The position numbers were made by a program, and so were the translations under genes. A stretch of 55,548 nucleotides of DNA from a virus, in the UHGV virus genome UHGV-0016284. One strand, given 5' to 3'. Below the pieces are notes generated by a model. It was not told the origin of the DNA. It saw only the letters and a list, made by a program, of their open reading frames with translations, and did not search any database. Below, in pieces: positions 206 through 20,750 of the stretch. Position 1 is the stretch's first letter; the number at the start of each line of letters is the position of its first letter.

Positions 206-3200
206 ATGAGTAGCGGCGGCGGCAAAGCCAAAACACCAACATTATTGAACGATAACCTGTATCATAAACAGTTTTATCGTGTCTTAGATATTCTCAGTGA
301 GGGGCCGATATATGGTCCGGTAAACCAGAAAGCACCACTGAATAACGTGATGCTTAATGACACGCCTGTTACTGACGCAAACGGGAATACATCAATACCG
401 GGGATTAGTATAGCCTGGCGAAACGGCACGGCTGACCAATCGCCGATTAATGGTTTTAATGCCATTGAGTCAACCGTTATTGTCAACGCAAAGGTAACTC
501 ACGACACGCCAATAATCAGGACTGTTTCAGATCCAAACGTTACCCGCGTCAGGTTGAATCTTGGTGTTGACGCTCTCGTTCAGTCAGACGACAAGGGCAA
601 TCAATACAATACATCCGTTATGTTGATGGTTGACGTTAAACCGTCATTATCTTCTACGTGGTCGCTGATTAAAGATATACACATTGGCCCCGGTAAACAA
701 AGCGGTGAATATCTGGAAGCTCACATTATCAAAGCGCCGGATGAAAAACCGTTTGATATTCGCATTCGTCGCATAACAGCAGACAGCAACAGCGATCTAT
801 TGCAGAATGATACGCGGTGGAGTAGTTACAGCGAAATCATAGACGATAATCTGTCTTATCCTCATACCGCTGTAGCTGGCGCTGTGATTGACCATGACCA
901 GTACACTGATACACCTACCCGCACCTATCATCTTCGCGGCCTGATTGTTGACGTGCCTGATAACTACAACACAGAAACGCGCACATATTCGGGCTTATGG
1001 CTTGGTGGATTCAAAAAAGCGTACACCAATAACCCTGCGTGGATTTTCCGGTATCTGGTTAAAAACGAGCGCTTCGGGCTTGCTCGACATGCTGGTTACA
1101 TTGATGTTGATGATGGCGCTTTGTACGTGCTCTCCCAATACTGCGATCAGTTGGTTGATGATGGCTATGGTGGCCTTGAACCTCGCATGACGCTTAACGC
1201 TTACATTACGGAGCAAATGAGCGCCCGCGACCTACTGGATAACATTGCAGGTATGTTCCGTGGTATCGCGTTATGGGACGGGCAACGCCTTACCGTGATG
1301 ATTGATGCGCCACAGGATCCAATTGCCACCATCACAAACGCAAGCGTCGTTGATGGCGCGTTTACTCGCTCAAGTCTTCCGCTTGCAGAGTGTTACAACG
1401 CCGTGATCGTATCATGGACTGACCCGGAAAACGGCTGGGAGCAATCAAAGGAATACGTGGCAGATGATGAACTAATCGCCCGCGATGGTTATAACGAAAC
1501 CACGTTGGAGGCGTTCGGGTGCACGTCACGCGGGCAAGCTCACCGCGCTGGGAAGTGGCTGATAGAAACAGCAAAACGCGAGCCGTCTAAATTCACGTTT
1601 AAAATGGCCCGTGACGCAATTCACTTCACCCCTGGTGATATTATCGAGATACTCGACAATAACCGTGCTGGCGCCCGTCTAGGCGGTCGTATCGTAGCAA
1701 ACAATGGCAGGGTTATCACTGTCGATAAGGTTGATTCTGAATATATCACCCCTGGCGACACCATTAGCCTGCTTGATAGTGACGGCAAATTTAAAAAACA
1801 CCAGATCACCGGAGTTAGCGGAAACAAAATTACCCTTGCATCCGCCCCGGCATGGATTCGTAACGGTACTGTATTTGCTGTATCAACTAACGCAGCAAAA
1901 CCCGTATTGTGTCGAATCACCAGCGTAGCAGAAACAGAAAATAACAGCGTGTACACCATAGAGGCTGCACAGCATGATCCGCACAAACAGGCTGTAGTAG
2001 ATAATGGCGCAATCTTTGAGGTCAACAACGATACGCTTAATCACTTCCGCGTGCCGAACATTGAAAACCTGAAGGTGTTAAACATTGGATCTGAAACAGT
2101 TCAATGCCGCGCAACATGGGAAACACTGACGACAACTCATCGCCTGACCTTTGAAATCCGCGTATACAATTCAGCGGGGGCCGTAGTTAAAAGCTACGAA
2201 ACTACTAATTACAGTTATGATTTTTATGGCATTGATGCGGGAACCTACTCATTAGGCATCCGTGGCAGAAATGACACGGGCATGAAGGGTGCTGAAAGCA
2301 TTGTGGATCTGGTTATTGGCGCACCGGCGGCCCCGGTAGGAGTTAACTGGGTTCCTGGTGTATTTCAGGCTACAGTTTACCCGATCAGCAGAACAACGCT
2401 TACCACTGACACTAGTTATGAGTTTTATTACTCAGGTGAAACACAAATCACCGATCCGGCATCAGTAACCACTAAGGCACAATATACCGGGCGTGGTCAT
2501 CAGTGGACGTTTGGCGGCATGAACACGGGCCACACCTATTACGTTTACGTGCGCACACGCAATGCTTTTGGCGTGTCTGACTTTGTAGAGGCGTCAGGTA
2601 AGCCGACAGAGAATTTTGATGAAATCAGTGACTACGTGATGAAGGATGTCATGGGGTCGGAACAGTTCAAGGAAATGATTGGTGACATCAAAGATCTAGG
2701 CGACCGCACCGATGTTATCGAAGGTGTTGCGGAAGAACTGAAAACAGCTACTGACAACCTCAAAACTACAACTGATAACCTTACGAACGTAACTGACGAT
2801 TTAAGGACTGAAACAGACAACCTTACCAGCATAACCGACGATTTGAGGACCGAAACAGACAACCTTACTAACATAACTGAAGATTTAAGGACTGACACTG
2901 ACAACCTGATCACAGAAACGGGAACAATAAAAGCTGACACCGATACACTTAAAAAAGAAACGGAAGATCTTTACAAAAAAGTTAAGGAAAACGCCGATGA
3001 TATTGGTCAGCATGAGTCCAGGATTGACCTATTAGAAGTGTCCAGCGAAAAAGTTGGCAGCGAACTGGCGCAAGCAAAAGCAAGCCTGCAAAACGCGTCA
3101 TTGGCGCTTATCAACAACTCGCTTGCACAGACAAACACGCGCGTTACCCTTACCGCCCAGTACAAAAAAGGCAGAACGGAAACGAAAGCGGAAATTGACC

Positions 3201-6406: not shown

Positions 6407-9400
6407 ATGATTTACACAACTGGAACAATTGCCATCAATGGCAATACTGTTACAGGCACGGGCACAAACTTCTCCGCGCCGCTTTCTCTCATTCGTGTAG
6501 GCTGCACGCTCATTGCTGTTGGCAATCCGGTACAGATCTTTACCATCACAGAAATTAAAAGCGGCACTGAACTGTCAGTGACGCCAGCGGCTAACCCTGC
6601 AATCCCTGCCGGGACAAAATTCAGCATCCTGCTATCTGACTCGATCTCAGTTGATGGGCTTGCTCAGGACGTAGCTGAAACCCTGCGTTACTACCAGGGC
6701 AAGGAAACAGAGATCGCCGCCGCTGTCGAGTGGTGGGAAGATTTTGGCGGTGATGGTCAGGTGGATCAGCTTCTTGCCAACATTCGCGCAGAAACAGCGA
6801 AATCAACCGCTAACGCTCAAAAAACAGAATCTGACAAAAACGCAGCAGAAGCATCAAAAACAGCGGCTGCAAAATCTGCCACGGCAGCAAAAACATCAGA
6901 AACTAACGCAAAGAAAAGCGAGACAGCAGCAAAGACAAGCGAAACCAACGCCAAAACATCAGAGAACAGGGCGCAAGAATATCTGAATCAAATGGGAAGG
7001 CTTACCAGCCCAATGGTTCAATGCGATTGGCCCGTTACAACTGTTGCGACTGACGCTTACGTTAAGATAGCTAAAATTACCAACCCGGGTGGCACCCCCT
7101 GCCACATAACACTAATGATCACTAATGCCGGTAACTACGGGAAAAGTTACGGAAACATTGATTTTGTCGAGATCTCCGCTCGCAATTTTCCCAATGAACT
7201 GAACGCCGACAATGTATCTAGATACTTAAGTATCCGCCGCTTAGGTTCACCGAATCTGGCAACTGATAATCAGATGAGTTATGGGCTTGTTAAGGGCGAT
7301 AACTTTTTTGAGGTCTGGTGTTGTCAGCGAGCATTTACCACAAGCGCAAAGGTCGCTGTACTGGCACAGACTAATGAAAACGTGGAATTATACATTCCTG
7401 AAGGATTCGTTAGACAAGACAACGCACCATCAGGATTTATTGAAAGCCCAGCAGCAAGGATTTACGACCAGGTAAACAAGCCGACTAAAGCAGATTTAGG
7501 TCTTTCTAATGCTATGCTTACAGGCGCTTTCGGTCTTGGCGGTAGCGGTATACCATCAGACGGCAAGATGAGCGATGTAGAACTATTAAAAGCTCTTCGT
7601 GACAAAGGTGGTCATTTCTGGCGTGCTGATAAGCCAGCCGGAAGCACTGCGACCCATTATACCCACGGCGCTGGTATATTCTCTCGGTGTGGCGATACGT
7701 GGGCGGCGTTCAACGTCGAATACGGAACAGGTAGAGTCAAGGTTTACGCTGGTAACGATAATGGACTTAACCAGGGGAATTACTCCCTCAATGAACTATA
7801 CGGAACCCGAAATAAGCCGTCGAAATCGGATGTTGGACTCAGCAACGTAACTAACGATGCGCAGGTGAAAAAATCCGGCGATATTATGTTTGGCGACCTG
7901 GCGATCAAAAAAAGTATACCGTCAGTCTTTCTGCGGTCAGACGATGGAGCCGCCCATGTATGGTTCCAAAACGGGGATCAGTCCGAACGCGGCGTTATTT
8001 ATGCGCCTACAAATACTGATACGCTTGGCGAAGTTCACATCAGGGCTAAAACCGCAAAAGGTGAGACAAAAGGTGATTTTATTGTTCGCCACGACGGTAT
8101 GATTTCAGCCAAAGAGGCAAAAATAGCTTACAAAATCAGCGGAGCCACCGCAGAGCTTGCAAACGCATCAACTAACGTCGCTGATACTACGTTAAAAATC
8201 AGCGGCCCACAGCATACGCCTTTAGTTTTAACTCGCAGTGGAGCAATTAAAAACTTATCTATTGGGTTTAAGGTTGATGATGTTAACCAAAAATACTTGG
8301 GCGTAGCTGGTGACGGTGATTTGTATTTTGGTGATTCTTCTGACCACTCAAAAAACAGCAAAGTAATTACACAAGCAAAACTCGATAGCGGGGTAACGGT
8401 AGGCGGCAAAACAACCTTTTCCGACCTTGCCACATTTAACGCAGGTATGGCGGGATCTATCGAGCCGGAAGCCATTGACGGCCGGACTATTGATTTAAAC
8501 GACTTGATTATTGCTAATACAGAAGCTGGATCCGTTAAATACTATCAATGCAAAACTGTCGCAGGTGGTGCAAATATTACCAATAAGCCTGACGGCGTAA
8601 ACGGTAACTTTTTACTCCGTGTAGAGTCGACTCGTAAGACTACGGGTTCAGATTATGCAAACTTGCAAACGCTGATTGGCAGCGACACAAAACGCATATA
8701 CGTTCGCTTTGTTGTCAATGGAAGTTGGACAGTGTGGAGTCAGGTTGTTGTTTCAGGATGGAATCAGGATGTAACCGTCAGGTCGTTAGCCACACAAAAT
8801 GTTATTCTTGGTAATGTTACTCTTCGAGGGATAAACAAGGATGAAGGGGCGGGGATAGGTGTTGTTTTTGATGGTTCTAACTCTACCGAAAACACCTTCG
8901 GAATAGTTAATACTGGTGGTGGTTCGGCTGTTTTTCACAATTATGCTAAACCGGCTGATTCATCCGCTGTTAATACTGGCGTTCTGATAGGTGGTTATGG
9001 ATCAAGGCCGTGGACAGGCAGCACCTATACAGAGCACAGTAATGTATCTCAACACTTTCTCATGGATGGTGTAGCTTCTGCAACTAACCACGGTGGTTGG
9101 TTCCGTTTGTTAACCACACCATTAAATGCAACCATAGACAAACGTAGACAGACATTTGCTACGAGCAATAATGGCGACCTTTATATAGGTTACGATGTAC
9201 CTATGGGGCTGTACAAGCTAGATACTGCAAATTACAACGGTTTAGACATATTAAACGGTCGCGGCCTTAAGCAAGTAAATAACTCGGTTAATGAAATAGC
9301 CTTAATCACTCCACGAAATGGATCGGCAACCTCTTTAAATTTCAGAGGTGTTGCTTTTGATGGCACAATGACCGGGACTAAGGGTGCAACTCAGAAGGGC

Positions 9401-10066
9401 GATAACTTGTGGTTATCTTTTGCAGGCCACGATGGTGTAAAATTCACTGGGGCAGCAGCTGGTATCAGAATTCAGGCTTCAACTGGTTGGGGCACGACAT
9501 CAACTCAATGCGGGATAACATTTGCAACAACTGCTCAAGGGAGCACAACAAGAGTTGATAGATGGTCTATAACAAGTGATGGCACTCTATCACCTGCACA
9601 AGATAATACTTACGCAATTGGTAGCGCTGTTTCCCGTGCTACGTCAATCTTTGCTACTAATGGTGCAATACAGACGTCAGATGCAAGAATGAAAACAGAT
9701 GTCCGAAAAATGTCGGACGCGGAACTTTCAGCCGCTAAAGATATAGCCAGGGAGTTTGGCTTCTTCCAGTGGATTGAAAGAGTTAAAACGGAGGGTGAGT
9801 CAGCCAGGTGGCATACAGGTATAACGGCCCAGCGTGTTATTAGCATTATGGAATCACACGGATTAAACCCGATGGCGTATGGATTTGTTTGCTATGATTC
9901 CTGGGAAGAACAGGAGGTTGTATCTGTGGACCCAGATAATCAATCCAGGACTATCACAAAAATAGAAGCGGGGGATAGATATAGCTTAAGATATGAAGAA
10001 CTTAGCATTTTTATAGCCAGAGGGTTAGAACAGAGGATTTCGGAGCTGGAGGAAAAACTTTTGTAA
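6407..10066 (+). CDS. side tail fibre: Stf-like N-terminus, C-terminal S74-type intramolecular chaperone (autoproteolytic) domain
   Basis: N-terminal AAKTSETNAKKSETAAKTSETNAKTSE repeats as in lambda Stf-type fibres; Gly-rich beta region; C-terminus ...TSDARMKTDVRKMSDAELSAAKDIAREFGFFQW... resembles the Ser/Lys self-cleaving chaperone of endosialidase-type fibres. Confidence 0.8.
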   Translation: MIYTTGTIAINGNTVTGTGTNFSAPLSLIRVGCTLIAVGNPVQIFTITEIKSGTELSVTPAANPAIPAGTKFSILLSDSISVDGLAQDVAETLRYYQGKETEIAAAVEWWEDFGGDGQVDQLLANIRAETAKSTANAQKTESDKNAAEASKTAAAKSATAAKTSETNAKKSETAAKTSETNAKTSENRAQEYLNQMGRLTSPMVQCDWPVTTVATDAYVKIAKITNPGGTPCHITLMITNAGNYGKSYGNIDFVEISARNFPNELNADNVSRYLSIRRLGSPNLATDNQMSYGLVKGDNFFEVWCCQRAFTTSAKVAVLAQTNENVELYIPEGFVRQDNAPSGFIESPAARIYDQVNKPTKADLGLSNAMLTGAFGLGGSGIPSDGKMSDVELLKALRDKGGHFWRADKPAGSTATHYTHGAGIFSRCGDTWAAFNVEYGTGRVKVYAGNDNGLNQGNYSLNELYGTRNKPSKSDVGLSNVTNDAQVKKSGDIMFGDLAIKKSIPSVFLRSDDGAAHVWFQNGDQSERGVIYAPTNTDTLGEVHIRAKTAKGETKGDFIVRHDGMISAKEAKIAYKISGATAELANASTNVADTTLKISGPQHTPLVLTRSGAIKNLSIGFKVDDVNQKYLGVAGDGDLYFGDSSDHSKNSKVITQAKLDSGVTVGGKTTFSDLATFNAGMAGSIEPEAIDGRTIDLNDLIIANTEAGSVKYYQCKTVAGGANITNKPDGVNGNFLLRVESTRKTTGSDYANLQTLIGSDTKRIYVRFVVNGSWTVWSQVVVSGWNQDVTVRSLATQNVILGNVTLRGINKDEGAGIGVVFDGSNSTENTFGIVNTGGGSAVFHNYAKPADSSAVNTGVLIGGYGSRPWTGSTYTEHSNVSQHFLMDGVASATNHGGWFRLLTTPLNATIDKRRQTFATSNNGDLYIGYDVPMGLYKLDTANYNGLDILNGRGLKQVNNSVNEIALITPRNGSATSLNFRGVAFDGTMTGTKGATQKGDNLWLSFAGHDGVKFTGAAAGIRIQASTGWGTTSTQCGITFATTAQGSTTRVDRWSITSDGTLSPAQDNTYAIGSAVSRATSIFATNGAIQTSDARMKTDVRKMSDAELSAAKDIAREFGFFQWIERVKTEGESARWHTGITAQRVISIMESHGLNPMAYGFVCYDSWEEQEVVSVDPDNQSRTITKIEAGDRYSLRYEELSIFIARGLEQRISELEEKLL

Positions 10067-13305: not shown

Positions 13306-13512
13306 TTACACAATCCGCATTGTGTTTCGTAGTTCACCGCGCAACGCCAGCAACGCGTAACGAATTGGCACAAAAGCCCGATTAAATTTTACGTGCTTAT
13401 ACTTGCGCATTAGTGGCGGCGTATAAATCATCGTGCCGCAAGGATCGCATGTGAATTTAAAGTGAGATTCGTCAATAAACGTTTCAACTGAATAAAAAAT
13501 TACCCGTCTCAT
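13306..13512 (-). CDS. hypothetical protein (68 aa)
   Basis: ORF in operon; overlaps the upstream gene by 4 nt. Confidence 0.4.
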   Translation of the reverse strand: MRRVIFYSVETFIDESHFKFTCDPCGTMIYTPPLMRKYKHVKFNRAFVPIRYALLALRGELRNTMRIV

Positions 13513-14066
13513 AATTCCAACCCCGTTTCACCGTTAAGTTTTTCTATTTCAAATACTGGTTTATCCGGCAACAAGCCATTATTTTTCCGGTATTCGTTCA
13601 GGCGGCTATCAAAGTCAAACGCCAGATCATTGGCGTGACCGAATCGCCCAGGTTTAAACAGTGAGTAAAAGTTAACGCCGTGTCTATTTGGATCAACGCA
13701 AAGCGTTTCATCAATCACCATTAAACGCATAGTACGAGAAAGATAATTCCACGGTATTCCCGTTTCAGCGCTAATGTCGCGCATACGTTTTTTAACGCTG
13801 TAGTCACCAAATAACGACGCAACACGCTTACGACGTTCAGCATATAACTGTTTAATGCGATAACCCAGCAGGCGGCGGCGGCGTCCAAAACATGTATACA
13901 CGCGCTCGACGATGCCGTTTTTTATTAAGTGTTTAATTGTCTCAGGCATGATTCCATCCTTATCATACCAAGCCAATAACCCTGTTTTCTGGCGTAACTG
14001 GTGCATTGTTGCGATGCCATCAAGTTCAAGGATATTGATAATTTTTGTTTCAATTTCAGCGCTCAT
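13509..14066 (-). CDS. hypothetical protein (185 aa), downstream of the helicase gene
   Basis: ORF in operon; basic, possibly winged-helix-like; no firm motif. Confidence 0.5.
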   Translation of the reverse strand: MSAEIETKIINILELDGIATMHQLRQKTGLLAWYDKDGIMPETIKHLIKNGIVERVYTCFGRRRRLLGYRIKQLYAERRKRVASLFGDYSVKKRMRDISAETGIPWNYLSRTMRLMVIDETLCVDPNRHGVNFYSLFKPGRFGHANDLAFDFDSRLNEYRKNNGLLPDKPVFEIEKLNGETGLEL

Positions 14067-14142: not shown

Positions 14143-15558
14143 TTAAAAAGATGTGTTATTCTGATTGTTTCGTTGGTTAAAACGGCTTGTGCGATGATTC
14201 ATTGACTGAATACACGCGGCGGCTGCGCGAGCCTGGTCGCATGGCAAGATATTACCGTTGTCATCAAACCGCTGGTAAACAGTTCCAGACTTACCATGAC
14301 GGTTTTTGGACACAATGATTTCCATATATTCGCGGGCAACAGACTGTTCGTCGTAATACCCATCGCGGTAAACCATGATGATCCTGTCGGCATCTTGCTC
14401 AAGGTTGCCAGAATCACGAAGATCAGAATTGTTAGGGCGCTTGTTCGGTCGTTCCTCAACGCGGCGTGACAGTTGCGCCAGCGCCAACACTGGTACACGC
14501 AATTCTTTCGCCATCATCTTTAACGACCACGACAATTGCCCAACGGCGAGATCGTGACGTTCGGCCTTAGCCAGCTGCATTAAGCCGATATAGTCAATCA
14601 TTACCATACCCAAATTTGGGTGATCCTGTTTCATGCGTTCCGTTGTTGCGCGTATTTCCTCAACCGTTAACTGCGACGCGTCAACGATCCACACATCAAG
14701 GTTAGCAAGTGCGCTCATACCCTGGCCGACATGCGCCCACCCTTCATCATCAAGTTTTACCGGATTGCGCAGGCAGTCAGTTGATAAATTACCAGCGCCA
14801 GCGATAGCTCGCTCAGTCATCTGATCGAGTGACATTTCAAGAGTGAAGAACAAAACGCCAACCCGCTGATCTTTACTGCCAGGGTAAGGGCGTTCAGCGG
14901 CAGCGCGGGCAATTGTCAGCGCCAACGCAGATTTACCAGACCCAGGGCGTCCGGCGAGAAGTACCAAATCAGTAGCGTTAATGCCGCCTAACATTTCATC
15001 GAGCGGGTCAATACCTGTTTTGATGTTGTCAGAATTAACACCGCATTCCATGCGCTTGCTTAAAACATCCGTATATTCCTGTACCGCATCGCGCAACAAC
15101 ACCGGAATGATCTTGTCTTTCGTTACCTTTAATTTTGAATATCGGGAATCAAAATCCTTCATCGTCTCTTTGACGACCTCAAGCGTACCTGTTTCCAGCT
15201 TGTAACGCATATCGTCGATGAGTTCCAACATCTGCCGCCGCTGGTGCTCTTCACGTAGTAGCTGTGCGTATCCCTTCAGGTTGGCAGCAGACGGGCACGA
15301 TCGCGCCGTTTGCATTAGCGGTACAAAGTTTTCATTGCCAATCTCATCGCCAACCAATAACGCGTCGATAAGATTTCTGTTTCTGGCTTGCGCCCGGATA
15401 ACTTCAAACGCACGTTTATACAGCGGAATCGTGAACACTTCAGGATCAAGCGTGGCGAGAACATCTTGCGCGTTAGGAGTAAGGCCACCCAACAACAGCC
15501 CGCCGATAACTGACGCCTCACGTTCCTGCCGTAGTGAGTTTATTTGCTCAGTTACCAT
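14143..15558 (-). CDS. replicative DNA helicase, DnaB family
   Basis: Walker A GRPGSGKSALALTIA, DnaB-like N-terminal domain, RecA-fold C-terminal half (VMIDYIGLMQ; LAQLSRRVEERPNKRP). Confidence 0.85.
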   Translation of the reverse strand: MVTEQINSLRQEREASVIGGLLLGGLTPNAQDVLATLDPEVFTIPLYKRAFEVIRAQARNRNLIDALLVGDEIGNENFVPLMQTARSCPSAANLKGYAQLLREEHQRRQMLELIDDMRYKLETGTLEVVKETMKDFDSRYSKLKVTKDKIIPVLLRDAVQEYTDVLSKRMECGVNSDNIKTGIDPLDEMLGGINATDLVLLAGRPGSGKSALALTIARAAAERPYPGSKDQRVGVLFFTLEMSLDQMTERAIAGAGNLSTDCLRNPVKLDDEGWAHVGQGMSALANLDVWIVDASQLTVEEIRATTERMKQDHPNLGMVMIDYIGLMQLAKAERHDLAVGQLSWSLKMMAKELRVPVLALAQLSRRVEERPNKRPNNSDLRDSGNLEQDADRIIMVYRDGYYDEQSVAREYMEIIVSKNRHGKSGTVYQRFDDNGNILPCDQARAAAACIQSMNHRTSRFNQRNNQNNTSF

Positions 15559-15576
15559 TATGTTATTGCCTCCGGT

Positions 15577-16695
15577 TTACAAAATGGAATATTCAGGGTA
15601 ATAAACAAAGCGCCCTATCTCACCATGATCCGGGCTGTAAATAATCACCGCTGCCAGCCGACGCGACCGCCAGCCGCCATTAGTTGAATATGCGTCTTTG
15701 CCCGCTAACGTTCCGTGGTGTTCGACGATCCCCAATGATGTTTCAACGACAGATTGGTGGTGTAGGTGTCCAGTGTGAGCGTAAACAGCAACCGACTTGC
15801 CGAAATCCTCCCGCCAGTCAGATACGCAAGCCGACAATAAATTTTCTGGCTTTTTGATAGTGTGCCCGTGGTGGTAAGCAAGGAATGTTTTACCGTACTG
15901 CGTGTGGTGGACGATAGCAGGGGACACATCAACAGTTACGCGCGGTTCGTCTTCGTAAAAAGCTGCCAGCGCCGCACGTAGCCAAATCATGCCTGACTGA
16001 TCGTGATTGCCTGATAACACCTGGATTTCAACATCCTTATGATTTAACAACATTTTACCTACCGCCCGCCGGACCGACCGGATCGCCACATAAACAAGTT
16101 TTGCGTAGCGCGAATCACAATCTAGGACGTGATTGCTTGATGGTGTGACTGGTAATAGCCCGTCAGTGTGAAGTAGATCGCCACCGAGAAGCAATACAGC
16201 TTTTTCAGACATCGGCGCAGCGCCTACAGCGTAGTCGAAGAAGTCATTCAACACGCGCTCAGCGATCCCGGTGTCGTAGCTCTCTCCACATTCTGCTCTG
16301 TGAGCAAGCGCCCCGATATGCAGATCAAATACCGGATAAAGGGCCAGGCTTTTTTGGAAATCAATTTCAGGCACTGGCACAGCCTCCGCGCGTGGTATCT
16401 CATCCGTGAAAGCGTCGCGGGCCGCTTCCATTAGCTGTTCCATTTCGTCGCGGTCACGGGCTGTTTTAATCCAGCGCATGATCACATTGCCGTTCTTATC
16501 GACCAGTAACGACTCGCCATTGACGCCAAAACCAGGGGCGCGGCGCGTTGATAATAAACCGCGTTTCGCCAGCTTTGCGCCCAGCCGCTCGACGTTGCGT
16601 TTTGACATACCATATTTTTCAGCGATCTGCTTGTACGTTAAACCGTTGTTATATTCAGCGATCAATTGCTCATCGCTTATCTTTCTTTGTGACAT
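15577..16695 (-). CDS. fusion protein: N-terminal helix-turn-helix plus C-terminal calcineurin-like metallophosphoesterase
   Basis: N-terminus LTYKQIAEKYGMSKRNVERL (HTH). C-terminal half carries the ordered metallophosphoesterase motifs DLHIG, GGDLLHTDG, GNHD, HHGH, GHLHH. Confidence 0.6.
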   Translation of the reverse strand: MSQRKISDEQLIAEYNNGLTYKQIAEKYGMSKRNVERLGAKLAKRGLLSTRRAPGFGVNGESLLVDKNGNVIMRWIKTARDRDEMEQLMEAARDAFTDEIPRAEAVPVPEIDFQKSLALYPVFDLHIGALAHRAECGESYDTGIAERVLNDFFDYAVGAAPMSEKAVLLLGGDLLHTDGLLPVTPSSNHVLDCDSRYAKLVYVAIRSVRRAVGKMLLNHKDVEIQVLSGNHDQSGMIWLRAALAAFYEDEPRVTVDVSPAIVHHTQYGKTFLAYHHGHTIKKPENLLSACVSDWREDFGKSVAVYAHTGHLHHQSVVETSLGIVEHHGTLAGKDAYSTNGGWRSRRLAAVIIYSPDHGEIGRFVYYPEYSIL

Positions 16696-16729
16696 AGTGT
16701 CATTTCCTCACGAATAACAAATTGTATAC

Positions 16730-17398
16730 TTAGTTACAAGTTAAAAGCTCAGTGATCCATACTTGTCCTTTAGCAGTGAATACAGCCTGCTCATATCCAT
16801 CGTGAGTTACCCTCATTTCACCGTAGCCCTCATCAATAAACCACTGACTAAATACACGGCGGCGACAGCGAAGATCGTAAACACCAACAGCCGAAAGTTT
16901 TCTGTTTAATTTTACGGCTGACATTCCCAGCGGTTTAGCAACCTCTGAAGCCGTTCGGTGCATATCGTTTTTGACTATCGCGTCACATACAGCCGCTTTT
17001 GGCGCAAGTTCCTTATTAACCAGTGCAAGCCGTTCTTTTTCCTCAGCAAGATCGGCAGCAAGGCGCAACGCTTCGCTTAATGTTTGAGGAATTGCAGGGG
17101 CGTTTTGCTGTACCCGTTTTTCAAGTTCCTGCCAGCGGTCGATGATGCGAGCACGTAACTCAACGCTATAGCCAGATACAACCAGCAAAGAGTCACGCTT
17201 AGTTAAAAGCCATTCCCTCTGTGTTTGATTGTTGTATCCTTTGTAAGTTACTGATTTGCTTGATTCCCCCAAATTTGGGGCAATGACGTCAATGTCTCTC
17301 AATATGTGATCGTGCCGTTTACCAGTTAGCTTGGCGATCTCACGAGAAGACATTGTTAATACTTCGTTCGCCCCATTAAGCGCCATTAATTCAGACAT
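16730..17398 (-). CDS. Rha-family phage regulatory protein / antirepressor-like
   Basis: N-terminus ...TMSSREIAKLTGKRHDHILRDI is the Rha-family signature; C-terminal coiled-coil/KilA-C-like region. Confidence 0.6.
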   Translation of the reverse strand: MSELMALNGANEVLTMSSREIAKLTGKRHDHILRDIDVIAPNLGESSKSVTYKGYNNQTQREWLLTKRDSLLVVSGYSVELRARIIDRWQELEKRVQQNAPAIPQTLSEALRLAADLAEEKERLALVNKELAPKAAVCDAIVKNDMHRTASEVAKPLGMSAVKLNRKLSAVGVYDLRCRRRVFSQWFIDEGYGEMRVTHDGYEQAVFTAKGQVWITELLTCN

Positions 17399-17479
17399 TT
17401 TATTTTCTCCGGTTTACTGAATATATATTCACAAAGAAAATTGACATCACCCGCCATAAATGACGTGGTTCTAATGCTT

Positions 17480-19297
17480 TCAATGGTGAAATAAACCTTT
17501 AACCTTGCTAAAGAATCCGTCTTCTGGCTTTTTATCGAGCCGGTACAGTAATTCTTTTACTTTGTCTTGCAATGCCATTATCAGCTTACGATAACGTTCA
17601 TGATTGCGCTGTTGACGCTGTTTCAGGTCGCCCATGTACCGTTTTTGTGCTGCCCGGCGTTGCATGTTGCGAGCAATCAGTTTGTTATATCTGTCTGATA
17701 GTTGGTTATAGCCAGATTGTAAGATGTTCACATTATTTTGCAGTTCCAGTTTATCATCCTCAAGTTCTGCCACTTTAAGCTGATAGCCCTTGATAACTAG
17801 AGCCTTGTTGCCTGCCTCCTGTTGTTGCACTTTGATTATTTCCTTCGCTTCTGTCAGATCTGCACGAAGGTCGTTGATTGTTTGTTTGTCTGCCGCAGCT
17901 TTCGCTTTTGCGTCTTCGTCATTTGCAGCGTTGAGTTTTTGGCGTAGTTCGCAATTAGTTTTTACCAGGTTGTCGCGCTCACTTTCCAGCTTCTGGCGTT
18001 TACCCTGTTCGTCACCAAATGCCTTATTCGCCTCGCTGTATTGGTGTTTCCAGTAGTCAACGCGTTGCTGATAGTTGTCGCGATCTTCTCTCGCTATGTT
18101 GAGCACTCCATGTAATTCCTTGATTTGTCCTTCCAGCGTTTTTACCTGGCATTTAAGATCTCCCACCTGTTTGCTATCTGTTTGCTGCGCAATAGCCGCG
18201 CTGATATGGTTGTCTTTAAATTTGCGAAAGGCCACCGATAAATCAACCCGATCCTTTTCCGCCCCTATACGTGCAACTATCATCCCTGCTATCTCAAACG
18301 GCGCATAGCCTTTTTTGATCTGCATGTCACAGTGTTCAGTGCAATAGATGTAACCAGGAAGTTTATTCAGGCTTTCGATGCGGTGGCGCAATTCGTCATC
18401 GTCAACACCATAAGCCGAAGCAATGTCCATCAGATTGATTTCATCTGTGTCATTAACGCGAACATCGTAACCGTGGAATTTAAACGCTCTAGGTAACTTC
18501 TGTTCCGGCGGTTCAGTGTTAATTTCTATTTGCTTCATTTCTTCACCTTCATAATAACGCTGTTTAATGTGTTCCGCTTCCTCTGGTGAGATATAATCAG
18601 GGAAGTTATTTATTTGTTTGCCGAAATACTTGATCTCACCCTGGATGCGCGCCTTTATTGCGTCGTTGATGTTGTTGAAACAACCAAGATTGTGAGTCAT
18701 TCCATCAGCTGAAATATACGCCCTCCATTTATTAGTCACTTTGTCCAAATAAATACCTTTGATTCCGCTATCTCCAAAAGGCTGACGTTTTACGTTAATC
18801 TCACTGAGTGTGATTAATTTCAGGTTTTCAATTTTCACGCATGAGTCATCAGCGTTTTCTATTACATAACCATCAGGAATAGGGCCGTTAAACATTTCCC
18901 ACACAATGCGATGCAAGTAATATTGGGCGTGATTTATTTTCAACCTAAATTTTTTAGCTACTTTTGCTCTGTCTTCACTCCCGCGAATAATATCGCCAGG
19001 TTTGATACGATTTTTCCCCACTCCCCGCGCCACCTTACTGACCAGATAACCATCAGGATGATAATCAAATAATTCAGGCCAGTTTTCCGCACACTGGCTG
19101 CAATCAGCGTACTGAATATCGCCAGCTTCCACCGCTGTTATTTCCTTCCAATAGCCACCGGCCACCATGCGTACAAACTCGCTTTCTTTACCCCAATGAT
19201 TCCACGTTTGATATTTACGCTTCCGCATAAACACCATTCCTTCATCAATTTTTGCAAACAATTTACTTCCTCTTATCGATATAAAATATCTAGACAT
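17480..19297 (-). CDS. multidomain HNH endonuclease (HNH + AP2-like + Bro-N/KilA-N-like) with long C-terminal coiled coil
   Basis: YLHRIVWEMFNGPIPDGYVIEN.DD..VKIENLKLIT (HNH_3-like); IKGIYLDKVTNKWRAYISADGMTHNLGCFNNINDAIKAR (AP2-like); FKFHGYDVRV..EINLMDIASAYGV (Bro-N-like); about 230 aa heptad-rich tail. Start set to ATG at 19297 (GAGG ribosome-binding site); track start 19345 is TTG. Confidence 0.6.
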   Translation of the reverse strand: MSRYFISIRGSKLFAKIDEGMVFMRKRKYQTWNHWGKESEFVRMVAGGYWKEITAVEAGDIQYADCSQCAENWPELFDYHPDGYLVSKVARGVGKNRIKPGDIIRGSEDRAKVAKKFRLKINHAQYYLHRIVWEMFNGPIPDGYVIENADDSCVKIENLKLITLSEINVKRQPFGDSGIKGIYLDKVTNKWRAYISADGMTHNLGCFNNINDAIKARIQGEIKYFGKQINNFPDYISPEEAEHIKQRYYEGEEMKQIEINTEPPEQKLPRAFKFHGYDVRVNDTDEINLMDIASAYGVDDDELRHRIESLNKLPGYIYCTEHCDMQIKKGYAPFEIAGMIVARIGAEKDRVDLSVAFRKFKDNHISAAIAQQTDSKQVGDLKCQVKTLEGQIKELHGVLNIAREDRDNYQQRVDYWKHQYSEANKAFGDEQGKRQKLESERDNLVKTNCELRQKLNAANDEDAKAKAAADKQTINDLRADLTEAKEIIKVQQQEAGNKALVIKGYQLKVAELEDDKLELQNNVNILQSGYNQLSDRYNKLIARNMQRRAAQKRYMGDLKQRQQRNHERYRKLIMALQDKVKELLYRLDKKPEDGFFSKVKGLFHH

Positions 19298-19464
19298 TAT
19301 TAATACCTCGCATTTAGTAATTTGCTTTTGCATGGATACAATCAATAAAACGCGCTACAACGCAAAAATCCCACCGCGTAACCCATTTGCACAGGTTGCA
19401 GTGTCTTATTGCGTCAGAGGCGCTTTCAGGTGGCTAATTTTTGATTTACAGACTGGTATGAAGG

Positions 19465-19566
19465 TTATGGATTGACCAGAAGGAACAAACCGCCGAACAA
19501 AGCGACGTTAACAGCGATTGCCGCAGCGATGGCAAAAGCCAGGGCGAAAACGTGTTTACCGTCCAT
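19465..19566 (-). CDS. hydrophobic minipeptide (33 aa, one predicted TM helix)
   Basis: MDGKHVFALAFAIAAAIAVNVALFGGLFLLVNP; GAGAGG ribosome-binding site upstream; intergenic location between the HNH and initiator genes. Confidence 0.3.
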   Translation of the reverse strand: MDGKHVFALAFAIAAAIAVNVALFGGLFLLVNP

Positions 19567-19703
19567 TTTAAAATCCTCTCTGTAACGCTCTATAACGAGC
19601 TAATCGCAAAAAGGTAAGCAAGTGTAGCACCATATGCGATTTAGCTCGCTGGTGAGCTTGTTTTGTGGGTGATTTTGGATTTTTGGTAATGCCGAATGGT
19701 TGT

Positions 19704-20750
19704 TTATGGGAAATTCCGTGTCTTGCGGAGCGTTTCGGGCTTCAGCAGAAAATCTATATCAGCCCGCCAGCCAGTGTTGTTGTTGCCAAAGTAGAAGTCG
19801 GGGGCATGCTTGTTGAAGTACTCGAAGTAGTTGATGAATGCTGTGATGTTTTTCTCCTTCATGCTGTCAGCCAGTCTATGTATCTTTCTCTCCAGATCGC
19901 GATCAAGCTCTGCATACGGCAGTGAGTCGCCGAATGTGTTGTTGTAGGCTTCTACTACCTCAGCAGCATCAATAACCGCGCCTTTTTGTTTCCATTGATT
20001 TGCCTTATCAAGTTTCTCAGCAAACAGCGTCTTCCTGCATATATTGAGTGGCGACAACTCGCCAGGTTCTTTCCTCCACACGCTCGCCACCCAATCAATG
20101 ACCAGTTTGATATCGTCAGGTGTAAAGCCGTTTGCTAGCAGCGTAACGAAAGGGCGGCTATCCCTGCTTTTCCCGCCGAGTCTGTCGCGGAAGTAGCTAA
20201 GCATATCCATTGCCTTAATCTGGTTTTGCGAAAGACCATTATCAACCACACTTTCCCCCTGTAGGGGGATTATAGGGGGTATATCTTTTTCTTTTTTTAC
20301 CTTGTTATTATTTATATCTACCTTGTTAGAGTCCCCCTCTAGGGACTTTGACTTGGCAAATGAAAGTCCCCCTCTAGGGACTTTGACTTCTTCTGCGGGG
20401 ATGGGTAAAAGTCCCCCTCTAGGGACTTTGACTTCTTCTGCGAGAATGAAGTCTTCAATGCTCATATCTTCGTTTTTTTGTACGACCTCCTTAAACTTTT
20501 CACTGAACCTGTAGATGTTCGAGGTGTTATATCTTCTTTTTCTGGATAGTACCCCGTATCTTTCCAGGACTTTTATTGCTGCAATGACGGAATCCCTTTT
20601 TATGTGACACCTTCTGGCTAGCGTGTCTATGCTCGGGTAGCATTGGTTTTTATCGTGGTCAGCATACCAGGCCAAAGTAATGAGGACGTAACTTACATTG
20701 CGATCATCAATAAGAAGCCTGAACGCGCGATCCTGTAGTTCGTATGCCAT
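19704..20750 (-). CDS. replication initiator (lambda O-like organisation, origin iterons inside the gene)
   Basis: N-terminal HTH-like domain (PSIDTLARRCHIKRDSVIAAIKVLERYGVL); central linker EEVKVPRGGLLPIPAEEVKVPRGGL encoded by DNA iterons; first long gene of the leftward early operon. Confidence 0.6.
   Translation of the reverse strand: MAYELQDRAFRLLIDDRNVSYVLITLAWYADHDKNQCYPSIDTLARRCHIKRDSVIAAIKVLERYGVLSRKRRYNTSNIYRFSEKFKEVVQKNEDMSIEDFILAEEVKVPRGGLLPIPAEEVKVPRGGLSFAKSKSLEGDSNKVDINNNKVKKEKDIPPIIPLQGESVVDNGLSQNQIKAMDMLSYFRDRLGGKSRDSRPFVTLLANGFTPDDIKLVIDWVASVWRKEPGELSPLNICRKTLFAEKLDKANQWKQKGAVIDAAEVVEAYNNTFGDSLPYAELDRDLERKIHRLADSMKEKNITAFINYFEYFNKHAPDFYFGNNNTGWRADIDFLLKPETLRKTRNFP
20285..20440. 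repeat. origin-like iterons (3 copies of a 25-bp unit) with adjacent AT-rich tract
   Basis: agtccccctctagggactttgactt at 20330-20354, 20365-20389 and 20410-20434, each with an internal inverted repeat (agtccc/gggact); AT-rich ctttttctttttttaccttgttattatttatatc upstream. Confidence 0.55.

What the first reader, a model, noticed from the sequence alone, without database searches (positions are those of the whole stretch)
15577..16695. HTH-metallophosphoesterase fusion protein immediately upstream of the DnaB-type helicase
The gene that sits where a helicase loader (lambda P or DnaC-like) would be expected encodes an N-terminal helix-turn-helix fused to a calcineurin-like metallophosphoesterase carrying the ordered motifs DLHIG, GDLLHTDG, GNHD and GHLHH. 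It is not the NinI/PP-lambda type (it lacks GDLVDRG and GNHE). A DNA-binding phosphoesterase coupled to the replicative helicase is not a standard lambdoid replication component. It could be a nuclease-type initiation factor, or an enzyme that degrades a nucleotide signal or modifies host proteins.
Basis: partly seen in the sequence, partly recalled or inferred. Interest (0 to 1): 0.6.

Follow-up and report, generated by a model that had tools for sequence, protein, structure and literature searches.

The report
Phage HTH-metallophosphoesterase of the T1 gp16 family
The gene is real and encodes a DNA-binding-type domain fused to an Mre11-like metal-dependent phosphoesterase, but it belongs to a large, already catalogued and untested phage family (phage T1 ORF16), and it sits next to the helicase only in this one phage lineage.

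Summary
The ORF at 15577-16695 (-) encodes 372 aa with an N-terminal helix-turn-helix and an intact metallophosphoesterase (MPE) motif set. It ends 18 nt before a P22-gp12-type DnaB helicase gene.

The protein is not a new kind. It matches phrog_704 ("DNA repair exonuclease") end to end. Homologues occur in 2038 phage records, including T1 ORF16, and in about 5500 protein clusters at 50% identity. None has been characterised that I could find.

The helicase adjacency is lineage-specific. All 41 mEpimmI-group contigs have it. None of 39 T1-like or ST44-like contigs does, and contexts elsewhere vary. P22's homologous helicase gene sits directly after the gene-18 initiator gene, so no "loader slot" is implied.

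The gene is under strong purifying selection (dN/dS 0.01-0.08).

Best reading: a Rad50-independent, DNA-targeted nuclease or phosphodiesterase serving phage DNA metabolism. The best-studied parallel is T5 A1, a predicted metallophosphatase that drives host DNA degradation.

Interest is modest.

The parts
15577..16695 (-). Complete CDS of the HTH-metallophosphoesterase (372 aa; stop codon TAA at 15577-15579)
   Evidence: ORF list. phrog_704 match E=2.6e-139 over aa 4-368. 95.7% identical to mEp554_11. dN/dS 0.01-0.08.
16528..16695 (-). N-terminal helix-turn-helix domain (aa 1-56)
   Evidence: Sub-threshold Pfam HTH hits at aa 10-64. 27 of 32 relatives hit Sigma70_r4_2, best E 2.4e-6. The family profile hits the GerE HTH in PDB at E=0.017. 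Model helices at 8-16, 21-28 and 32-44.
16381..16527 (-). Beta-hairpin plus linker helix (aa 57-105), with family-conserved G69 and W75
   Evidence: Model strands 58-65 and 71-78, helix 79-97. G69 and W75 are conserved in at least 90% of 136 diverse family members. The hairpin is retained in Campylobacter phage homologues that lack the HTH: the match starts at aa 58.
15580..16380 (-). Metallophosphoesterase catalytic domain (aa 106-372)
16312..16326 (-). MPE motif I, DLHIG (aa 124-128)
   Evidence: Read directly from the sequence. D124 and H126 are invariant.
16159..16182 (-). MPE motif II, GDLLHTDG (aa 172-179); Mre11-like GDxxH form
   Evidence: It aligns with GDLLHS of T. maritima Mre11 in the profile-versus-PDB search.
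16000..16011 (-). MPE motif III, GNHD (aa 229-232)
   Evidence: Read directly from the sequence. N230 and H231 are invariant.
15862..15876 (-).
   Evidence: H276 is invariant and G277 is conserved in at least 90% of members.
15757..15771 (-). MPE motif V, GHLHH (aa 309-313)
   Evidence: H312 is invariant; G309 and H310 are conserved in at least 90% of members.
14143..15558 (-). Downstream gene: DnaB-family replicative helicase of the P22 gp12 type (context, same operon)
   Evidence: PF03796 E=1.1e-75. 57% identical to P22 gene 12. 18-nt gap with GGAGG at 15569-15573. No terminator-like site in the gap between the two genes.
16730..17398 (-). Upstream gene: Rha/KilAC antirepressor-like protein (variable accessory slot)
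   Evidence: PF09669 and PF03374. Replaced or divergent (39-99% identity, or absent) in related contigs.
19704..20750 (-). O-like replication initiator gene. It contains three palindromic iterons (20328-20448) and an AT-rich stretch (20274-20328), which together look like the replication origin.
   Evidence: HTH_36 and phrog_428. Repeats found.

Best explanation
The gene encodes a stand-alone, Rad50/SbcC-independent member of the metallophosphoesterase superfamily, closest in fold to the Mre11/SbcD and PolD-DP1 nuclease branch. A small N-terminal HTH and beta-hairpin module precedes the catalytic domain.

Proposed mechanism: the HTH module brings the enzyme to DNA, or to a DNA-bound partner. 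The two-metal centre (D124, H126, D173, N230, H276, H310 and H312 as ligands; H176 and H231 as Mre11-like catalytic histidines) then hydrolyses phosphodiester bonds in nucleic acid. It probably acts on DNA ends, nicks or structured intermediates, serving phage DNA metabolism such as recombination-dependent replication, processing of intermediates, or attack on host DNA.

In this phage lineage it is co-transcribed with the P22-type helicase from the early rightward operon. It is not a helicase loader, and the link to the helicase is genomic, not mechanistic.

Shown here: the gene is real, the catalytic motifs are intact and conserved, the fold is MPE, selection is purifying, the family is large, and its genomic context is variable.

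Inferred: a nucleic-acid substrate, a DNA-targeting role for the HTH, and the biological process served.
For: - Sequence: a profile of 136 diverse members finds, as its best MPE sequence hits in PDB, T. maritima Mre11/SbcD chains (E 0.13-0.25, weak). Motifs I and II align in register, including GDLLHS against GDxLHxD.
- Conservation: all metal ligands and both Mre11-type histidines are invariant or at least 95% conserved across representatives with a median 33% identity to the query.
- Selection: dN/dS 0.01-0.08 in both domains.
- HTH.
- DNA-metabolism contexts in independent lineages:
  - here, between the O-like initiator and DnaB
  - Salmonella phage ST44, between a DUF3987 protein and primase, near an SNF2-type helicase, a RecE-like nuclease and Erf
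  - T1 and JLBYU01, at the end of the primase/helicase/VRR-NUC/Dam block
  - KpVB3, downstream of primase
  - Campylobacter phage NCTC12673, directly after DNA ligase and near RusA
  - a Ruegeria N4-like phage, after dCMP deaminase and thymidylate synthase
- Precedent: T5 A1 is a predicted metallophosphatase said to share structural features with double-strand-break repair nucleases and polymerase proofreading subunits. It is necessary and sufficient for host DNA degradation in vivo (bioRxiv 10.64898/2026.04.02.716235). It carries the MPE motif series in its C-terminal half, and several of its relatives have Pfam HTH hits.
- Its MPE domain gives the strongest, though weak, profile signal to this family. 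hhalign gives Prob 40%, E 3e-4, against 6.8% for SbcD. Reciprocal hmmsearch gives 11.8 and 18.3 bits, against 4.4 and 5.3 bits for SbcD.
Against: - No biochemical or genetic data exist for any member that I could find.
- Pfam PF00149 is not reached at the curated cut-off.
- The model has no Mre11 capping domain.
- No Rad50/SbcC partner is found next to the gene or among the large ORFs scanned, and none is annotated in T1.
- A potent non-specific DNase in the early operon of a temperate phage would harm cells on the way to lysogeny. The T5-A1-like "host DNA destroyer" role is therefore unlikely for this particular member.
- Several conserved loops (aa 133-138, 179-194, 332-344) are modelled with pLDDT below 50.
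Confidence: 0.5

Rival explanations
1. It is a small-molecule nucleotide phosphodiesterase. It might degrade a defence second messenger (cyclic oligonucleotides, cNMPs, ADPR-derived signals) or act in nucleotide salvage. The HTH would then serve autoregulation or localisation.
Against: The gene is a near-universal, vertically conserved member of several virulent phage groups rather than sporadic (2038 records). Motif II has the Mre11-type GDxxH, not the GDxxxxG of cNMP phosphodiesterases (plus general knowledge of the subfamilies). A fused HTH is more easily explained by a nucleic-acid substrate. There are no PADLOC hits. No known anti-defence phosphodiesterase has this fold (general knowledge).
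Confidence: 0.2
2. It is a replication-initiation or helicase-loading factor specific to the DnaB-type helicase. The HTH would bind at or near the origin, and the MPE domain would nick or remodel DNA, or recruit the helicase.
Against: Orthologues with a homologous N-terminal domain (49-66% identity) occur in phages with no DnaB homologue within 6 kb (0 of 39 contigs) or none annotated at all (T1). The helicase's closest characterised relative, P22 gp12 (57% identity), is encoded directly after gene 18 with no third gene and is known to work without a loader (established knowledge). The O-like gene carries its own iterons and AT-rich region. There is no similarity to lambda P, DnaC/DnaI, DciA or G39P. 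Adjacency at 80-99% DNA identity can reflect common descent alone.
Confidence: 0.07
3. It is primarily a transcription regulator, for example of middle or late genes or of its own operon. Its HTH would bind operators, and the MPE domain would act as a sensor or accessory enzyme.
For: The HTH resembles sigma-70 region 4 and LuxR/GerE-type HTHs. Some records name homologues as LysR-family, LuxR-type or Rrf2-family regulators or simply "transcriptional regulator". In several virulent phages the gene lies at the boundary before lysis or packaging genes.
Against: Those names are automatic annotations. The catalytic residues are more strongly conserved than the HTH: the HTH is the least conserved part and is absent or replaced in the Campylobacter and Rhizobium 16-3 homologues. 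Purifying selection on the MPE domain is as strong as on the HTH.
Confidence: 0.08
4. It is a protein phosphatase acting on host or phage proteins, like lambda NinI.
For: It has the MPE fold. Some GenBank records call homologues "serine/threonine protein phosphatase".
Confidence: 0.05

Closest known systems
PHROG 704 / phage T1 ORF16 (ST16) family, annotated "DNA repair exonuclease" or "putative phosphoesterase"
   Same: Full-length homologue: E=2.6e-139 over aa 4-368 of 372, and T1 ORF16 hits the same PHROG at 7.2e-155. Same HTH plus MPE architecture, same invariant residues, 61-68% identity to the T1-like contig orthologues.
   Different: Here the gene sits in the early replication operon of a temperate mEpimmI-group phage, just before a DnaB helicase. 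In T1 it lies in its own terminator-flanked unit before the lysis genes. The family has no experimentally established function that I could find.
Mre11 / SbcD nucleases (COG0420)
   Different: No capping domain. No Rad50/SbcC partner next to the gene, among the large ORFs scanned, or annotated in T1. Sequence similarity is not significant: E 0.13-0.25, and hhalign Prob 6.8% against SbcD. It has an N-terminal HTH instead.
Phage T5 A1 (predicted metallophosphatase; host DNA degradation and second-step transfer)
   Same: A phage protein whose C-terminal half holds the MPE motif series GDIH / HDVHD / SNHD / HGH / GHTH. It has a long N-terminal region, which another paper calls a DNA-binding domain, and several relatives have Pfam HTH hits. 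The T5 authors name DSB-repair nucleases and polymerase proofreading subunits as its structural relatives. It gives the strongest, though weak, profile-profile signal to this family: Prob 40%, E 3e-4, and 11.8 and 18.3 bits in reciprocal hmmsearch.
   Different: Different PHROG (1745 versus 704). It is 556 aa, with a roughly 290-aa N-terminal region. Homology beyond superfamily level is unproven, since only motifs III-V align. A1 is a pre-early, toxic, essential gene of a virulent phage. The present gene is in a temperate phage's early operon, where wholesale host DNA destruction is implausible.
Archaeal PolD small subunit DP1 and eukaryotic polymerase B-subunits
   Different: The model shows an HTH and hairpin, not an OB-fold. 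No partner polymerase gene was identified. Sequence similarity is undetectable.
Lambda NinI (PP-lambda) Ser/Thr phosphatase
   Same: A phage-encoded MPE-superfamily enzyme located in the replication/nin region of temperate coliphages.
   Different: NinI is PPP-type (GDxVDRG, GNHE). Those motifs are absent here, PPP structures rank low, and NinI has no HTH. Phage 16-3 encodes both types.

Membership tests
Calcineurin-like metallophosphoesterase superfamily | Ordered motifs DxH / GDxx(D/H) / GNH(D/E) / H / GHxH that supply the two-metal site | tested here: met
   DLHIG, GDLLHTDG, GNHD, HHGH and GHLHH are present in order. D124, H126, D173, N230, H231, H276 and H312 are invariant in 136 diverse relatives.
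Calcineurin-like metallophosphoesterase superfamily | Beta-sandwich MPE fold | tested here: met
Calcineurin-like metallophosphoesterase superfamily | Pfam PF00149 or PF12850 match at the curated cut-off | tested here: not met
   The window protein has no Metallophos hit even at E up to 1. 15 of 32 relatives hit only below threshold, best E 4.4e-4. T1 ORF16 scores 18.8 bits against a 21.5-bit cut-off. The family is a divergent clade.
PHROG 704 (T1 ORF16-like) | Full-length profile match | tested here: met
   E=2.6e-139, aa 4-368 aligned to profile positions 2-387 of 390.
Mre11/SbcD nucleases | Mre11-type active site (GDxxH motif II histidine, GNHD) | tested here: met
   H176 is 97% conserved and H231 is invariant. 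Motifs I and II align in register with T. maritima Mre11.
Mre11/SbcD nucleases | C-terminal capping domain following the MPE core | tested here: not met
Mre11/SbcD nucleases | Partner Rad50/SbcC SMC-like ATPase encoded with it | tested here: not met
   The neighbours are a Rha/KilAC protein and DnaB. None of the large ORFs scanned has an AAA_23 or SMC-type domain, though smaller ORFs were not scanned. None is annotated in T1.
Mre11/SbcD nucleases | Significant sequence-profile similarity | tested here: inconclusive
   hmmsearch of the family profile against PDB sequences: TmMre11/SbcD at E 0.13-0.25. hhalign against an enterobacterial SbcD alignment: Prob 6.8%. That SbcD alignment had low diversity.
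Mre11/SbcD nucleases | Mn2+-dependent exo- and endonuclease activity | not testable with these tools
   Needs biochemistry.
PPP Ser/Thr phosphatases (lambda NinI type) | GDxVDRG and GNHE motifs | tested here: not met
Replicative helicase loaders (lambda P, DnaC/DnaI, DciA, SPP1 G39P) | Sequence or fold similarity to a known loader family | tested here: not met
   Pfam, PHROG and NCBIfam searches list no loader family for this protein. The structural neighbours are all MPEs.
Replicative helicase loaders (lambda P, DnaC/DnaI, DciA, SPP1 G39P) | Conserved genomic pairing with a DnaB-type helicase across the protein family | tested here: not met
   Paired in 41 of 41 mEpimmI-group contigs but in 0 of 39 other contigs. 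Not seen in the annotated genomes of T1, JLBYU01, AG11, slur05, 16-3, the Vibrio, Yersinia and Campylobacter phages, KpVB3, Pan3 or the Ruegeria phage.
Replicative helicase loaders (lambda P, DnaC/DnaI, DciA, SPP1 G39P) | Physical interaction with, and loading of, the helicase | not testable with these tools
   No complex prediction or experiment was available.
T5 A1 family (PHROG 1745) | Profile membership or demonstrable homology | tested here: inconclusive
   A1 hits only phrog_1745. hhalign of the MPE domains gives Prob 40%, E 3e-4, aligning motifs III-V only. Reciprocal hmmsearch gives 11.8 and 18.3 bits.

The most novel reading that the evidence does not exclude
The T1-ORF16 family of HTH-MPE proteins (about 5500 protein clusters) could be a distant branch of the T5 A1 lineage: Rad50-independent, DNA-targeted phage nucleases. 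In temperate mEpimmI phages this enzyme would have been drawn into the replication operon, where its lineage-specific N-terminal module (kept at 88-90% identity even when the catalytic domain is swapped) ties it to the origin or to the P22-type helicase. It would then be a real, previously unrecognised replication or fork-processing component. In T1-like phages the same family could be the so far unassigned host-DNA-degradation function.
Probability: 0.12. Interest if true: 0.6.

Novelty: new member of a known kind. Interest (0 to 1): 0.3.

Why it matters
The finding does not reveal a new replication mechanism. It does point to a very large, strongly conserved phage enzyme family, which includes classical phage T1, is present in over 2000 sequenced phages, and has no tested function.

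If these proteins are DNA nucleases acting without a Rad50 partner, as the T5 A1 parallel suggests, they would matter in several ways:
- for understanding how phages lacking their own polymerase process replication and recombination intermediates or attack host DNA
- for interpreting triggers of nuclease-sensing defence systems such as retrons
- for annotation, since current database names range from "Rrf2-family regulator" to "DNA polymerase II small subunit"

The temperate mEpimmI phages, which grow on E. coli K-12, would be a convenient genetic system for testing this.

Tried and rejected
- **Conserved small partner ORF.** Several phages have a 70-80 aa ORF overlapping the stop codon of the MPE gene. 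An alignment of these and of the upstream small ORFs showed no homology, so I dropped the idea.
- **Ksap1 link.** Ksap1 is reported to lie between a methyltransferase gene and a "phosphatase" gene in SECphi18 (PMC11564622). Dhillonvirus loci instead show lysozyme - small ORF - MPE - small ORF - small terminase, with no adjacent methyltransferase annotated. The supplement is not held. The link is unresolved and I did not use it.
- **hhalign of the family profile against single sequences.** E. coli SbcD gave Prob 2.7% and T5 A1 gave Prob 16%, each aligning only the GNHD segment. This was uninformative, so I repeated it with alignments restricted to the MPE domain.
- **PADLOC defence models.** No hit.
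- **Literature.** Searches for a characterised homologue and for T1 "gene 2.5", the host-DNA-degradation gene, found nothing. Papers on Metis/MisA, bNACHT and the Viral Compendium mention MPE domains, but not this family.
- **PDB sequence search.** With the single protein and with the close alignment A1, only weak HTH matches and two unrelated enzymes came up, all at E above 0.1, and no MPE.
Full report
**What is there.** The ORF is exactly as described: 15577..16695 on the minus strand, ATG start, 372 codons. It carries DLHIG (aa 124-128), GDLLHTDG (172-179), GNHD (229-232) and GHLHH (309-313). I confirmed the coordinates of DLHIG and GNHD on the DNA. The gene lies 34 nt downstream of a Rha/KilAC antirepressor-like gene (16730-17398). 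It ends 18 nt before the start of a DnaB-family helicase gene (14143-15558; PF03796 E=1.1e-75), with a GGAGG ribosome-binding site between them. No convincing promoter or terminator separates these genes. They belong to one rightward early operon that begins with an O-like initiator gene (19704-20750; HTH_36, phrog_428).

**Which phage this is.** The window is a circularly permuted genome of the mEpimmI group of Nus-dependent coliphages. Only seven phage records match it at the DNA level: mEp554, mEp021, mEp010, mEp013, mEp044, mEp515 and MagusPhagus (PMC11893012). mEp554 has the same order, O - small ORFs - hypothetical - this gene - helicase.

**Is it a metallophosphoesterase with an HTH?** Sequence libraries alone are lukewarm.
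- Pfam gives only sub-threshold HTH hits at aa 10-64 and no Metallophos hit for this protein.
- Among 32 relatives, 27 hit Sigma70_r4_2 (best E 2.4e-6) and 15 hit Metallophos below threshold (best E 4.4e-4).

Structure settles the question.
- An AlphaFold2 model built on 32 homologues has mean pLDDT 75.8, with most of the catalytic core at 84-96. It shows a three-helix N-terminal bundle, a beta-hairpin and linker helix, then an alpha/beta sandwich.
- The ten best Foldseek PDB hits are all archaeal Mre11 (E 1.3e-7 to 3.5e-6), followed by a small YfcE-like phosphoesterase (3ck2), Rv0805, more Mre11 chains, PolD DP1 and YfcE.
- A profile of 136 diverse family members finds the GerE HTH for the N-terminus (E 0.017). 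As its best MPE sequence hits it finds T. maritima Mre11/SbcD chains (E 0.13-0.25), with motifs I and II in register, including GDLLHS against GDxLHxD. P. putida Nuclease MPE appears more weakly (E 0.89).

The enzyme is nearer to the nuclease branch, although the ranking among MPE subfamilies is too flat to fix the substrate.

**How large and how constrained is the family?**
- The protein matches phrog_704 ("DNA repair exonuclease") end to end (E=2.6e-139).
- tblastn finds homologues in 2038 of 50,697 phage records. These include Drexlerviridae (T1-like phages and Webervirus), Dhillonvirus and Jerseyvirus. They also include Vibrio phages, Rhizobium phage 16-3, Campylobacter Fletchervirus and Roseobacter-group phages.
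- T1's copy is ORF16.
- An exhaustive HMM search finds 5523 clusters (at 50% identity) at E up to 1e-3 and 1414 at E up to 1e-30. Most are 370-420 aa, and the matches usually extend well into the N-terminal region.
- Across 136 representatives with a median 33% identity to the query, D124, H126, D173, N230, H231, H276 and H312 are invariant. H176, H310 and a family-specific set (G69, W75, D178, T184, L191, D192, D194, R196, R252, D334) are conserved in at least 90%.
- Within the mEpimmI group, dN/dS is 0.01-0.08 in both domains at dS 0.4-0.7.

This is a functional, catalytically intact enzyme and a member of an already catalogued family. I found no experimental study of any member.

**Is it coupled to the helicase?** Only within this lineage.
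- In 80 IMG/VR contigs recovered with the family patterns, all 41 with at least 91% identity have the DnaB gene 21 nt downstream. In three of them an HNH homing-endonuclease gene is inserted between the two.
- None of the 39 contigs with 61-73% identical orthologues has a DnaB homologue within 6 kb.
- 35 of 5426 complete E. coli genomes carry DNA matching the cassette as a prophage, with a variable upstream gene: BRO, KilAC, Rha or zinc-ribbon.

Elsewhere the context differs:
- T1 and JLBYU01: at the end of the primase/helicase/VRR-NUC/Dam block, before the lysis genes. In T1 it is flanked by terminators.
- Dhillonvirus: between lysozyme and small terminase.
- Jerseyvirus: a three-gene island on the opposite strand inside the tail genes.
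- Salmonella phage ST44: between a DUF3987 protein and primase, near an SNF2-type helicase, a RecE-like nuclease and Erf.
- KpVB3: downstream of primase.
- Campylobacter phage NCTC12673: directly after DNA ligase.
- A Ruegeria N4-like phage: after dCMP deaminase and thymidylate synthase.
- Other positions in Vibrio, Yersinia, Rhizobium and cyanobacterial phages.

The helicase here is 57% identical to P22 gp12, whose gene directly follows gene 18 with no third gene. From established knowledge, gp12 works without a DnaC-like loader. The O-like gene carries three palindromic iterons and an AT-rich stretch, a lambda-like origin. Initiator, origin and helicase are therefore all accounted for, and no loader slot needs filling. 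Nothing in the protein resembles a loader.

Two observations keep a small door open.
- The mosaic joint in this phage group lies upstream of the MPE gene. The O-like gene is only 31-51% identical between contigs, while the MPE, DnaB and NinB genes are above 90%.
- In prophages that share this gene arrangement, the N-terminal 105 aa stay 88-90% identical while the catalytic domain has been replaced by one only 47-48% identical. This hints that the N-terminal module is adapted to its local context.

**Mechanism.** The most economical reading is a DNA-targeted, two-metal phosphodiesterase of the Mre11/SbcD class that works without a Rad50-like partner.
- No SbcC/Rad50-like protein is encoded next to it or among the large ORFs scanned, and none is annotated in T1.
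- It also has no capping domain, so I do not file it as an Mre11/SbcD family member.

A useful parallel is T5 A1.
- A 2026 preprint describes A1 as a predicted metallophosphatase that shares structural features with DSB-repair nucleases and polymerase proofreading subunits. These are the same neighbours found here.
- The preprint shows that A1 is necessary and sufficient for host chromosome degradation in vivo. In vitro nuclease activity is still untested.
- A1's C-terminal half contains GDIH / HDVHD / SNHD / HGH / GHTH. Several of its relatives have Pfam HTH hits. Another paper refers to its N-terminal DNA-binding domain and C-terminal endonuclease domain.
- Domain-restricted profile comparison gives Prob 40%, E 3e-4 for A1 against 6.8% for SbcD. 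Reciprocal hmmsearch gives 11.8 and 18.3 bits against 4.4 and 5.3 bits.
- These signals are consistent but weak, so homology beyond the superfamily level remains unproven.

Because this phage is temperate and the gene sits in the early operon, wholesale host DNA destruction is unlikely here. A structure-specific or end-specific role in replication or recombination fits better. This phage group also encodes an Erf recombinase.

The rival readings cannot be excluded computationally, because MPE chemistry is promiscuous (for example MisA). They are a small-molecule phosphodiesterase, a transcription regulator, a protein phosphatase and a helicase-associated factor.

**Verdict.** The fold assignment and the "nuclease-like, not NinI-like" inference are supported. 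The helicase-loader or helicase-coupling idea and the implied novelty are not. The protein is a new member of a known but functionally untested phage family. Interest is modest (0.3). The value of the finding lies in flagging a very widespread conserved enzyme whose role could be tested easily in mEp phages or T1.

Noticed in passing
window 20274-20448 (inside the O-like gene, 19704-20750, minus strand): There are three copies of a palindromic iteron, A(A/G)AGTCCCCCTCTAGGGACTTTGACTT, at 20328, 20363 and 20408, next to an AT-rich stretch (20274-20328). This is the likely lambda-type replication origin embedded in the initiator gene. Two of the copies encode the duplicated peptide AEEVKVPRGGL.
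   Followed up: partly
window 17480-19345 (minus strand): A 621-aa ORF with a TTG start has an HNH_3 homing-endonuclease domain (aa 142-182) and what appears from the sequence to be a long coiled-coil C-terminal half. It is inserted between the O-like gene and the Rha/KilAC gene. No comparable ORF is annotated at that position in mEp554.
   Followed up: partly
window 16700-20750 versus loci L019-L057, L085, L093: There is a mosaic joint just upstream of the MPE gene. The O-like initiator is only 31-51% identical to those of 41 related contigs, and the Rha/KilAC slot is variable or empty. The MPE, DnaB and NinB genes are mostly above 90% identical.
   Followed up: partly
L009 6118-6645, L010, L011, L049, L051, L056: In some relatives an HNH_3 homing-endonuclease ORF of about 175 aa is inserted precisely between the MPE gene and the DnaB gene, overlapping the end of the MPE gene in L009-L011.
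   Followed up: no
proteins P0098 and P0107 (locus L009 5001-6122): The MPE gene shows domain-level mosaicism. The N-terminal 105 aa are 88-90% identical to the window protein, but the catalytic domain is only 47-48% identical, with all catalytic residues kept. Conversely, the window's catalytic domain is 68-70% identical to those of the T1-like relatives compared.
   Followed up: yes
window 13509-14066 (minus strand): A MarR-like or Ren-position gene downstream of the helicase (phrog_1687) occurs as two allele classes among relatives: 78-99% or 37-42% identity.
   Followed up: no
L100 1706-3376 (phage T5 A1): The C-terminal half of T5 A1 contains a complete MPE motif series (GDIH, HDVHD, SNHD, HGH, GHTH), yet it gets no Pfam hit at E up to 0.1. 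Several A1 relatives of about 530 aa carry Pfam HTH domains.
   Followed up: partly
window 206-5950 and 6407-10066 (plus strand): There is a very long J-like tail-tip protein (1914 aa, with FNIII-A_GpJ, Ig_J and Phage_Tail_Tip domains). It is followed by a 1219-aa protein with a C-terminal Peptidase_S74 intramolecular chaperone domain, typical of tail fibres or spikes.
   Followed up: no
database names of homologues: Annotation of this family is inconsistent. Names include "hypothetical protein", "Rrf2 family transcriptional regulator", "LysR family transcriptional regulator", "HTH luxR-type domain-containing protein" and "serine/threonine protein phosphatase". Others are "DNA polymerase II small subunit", "DNA repair exonuclease" and "metallophosphoesterase".
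   Followed up: no
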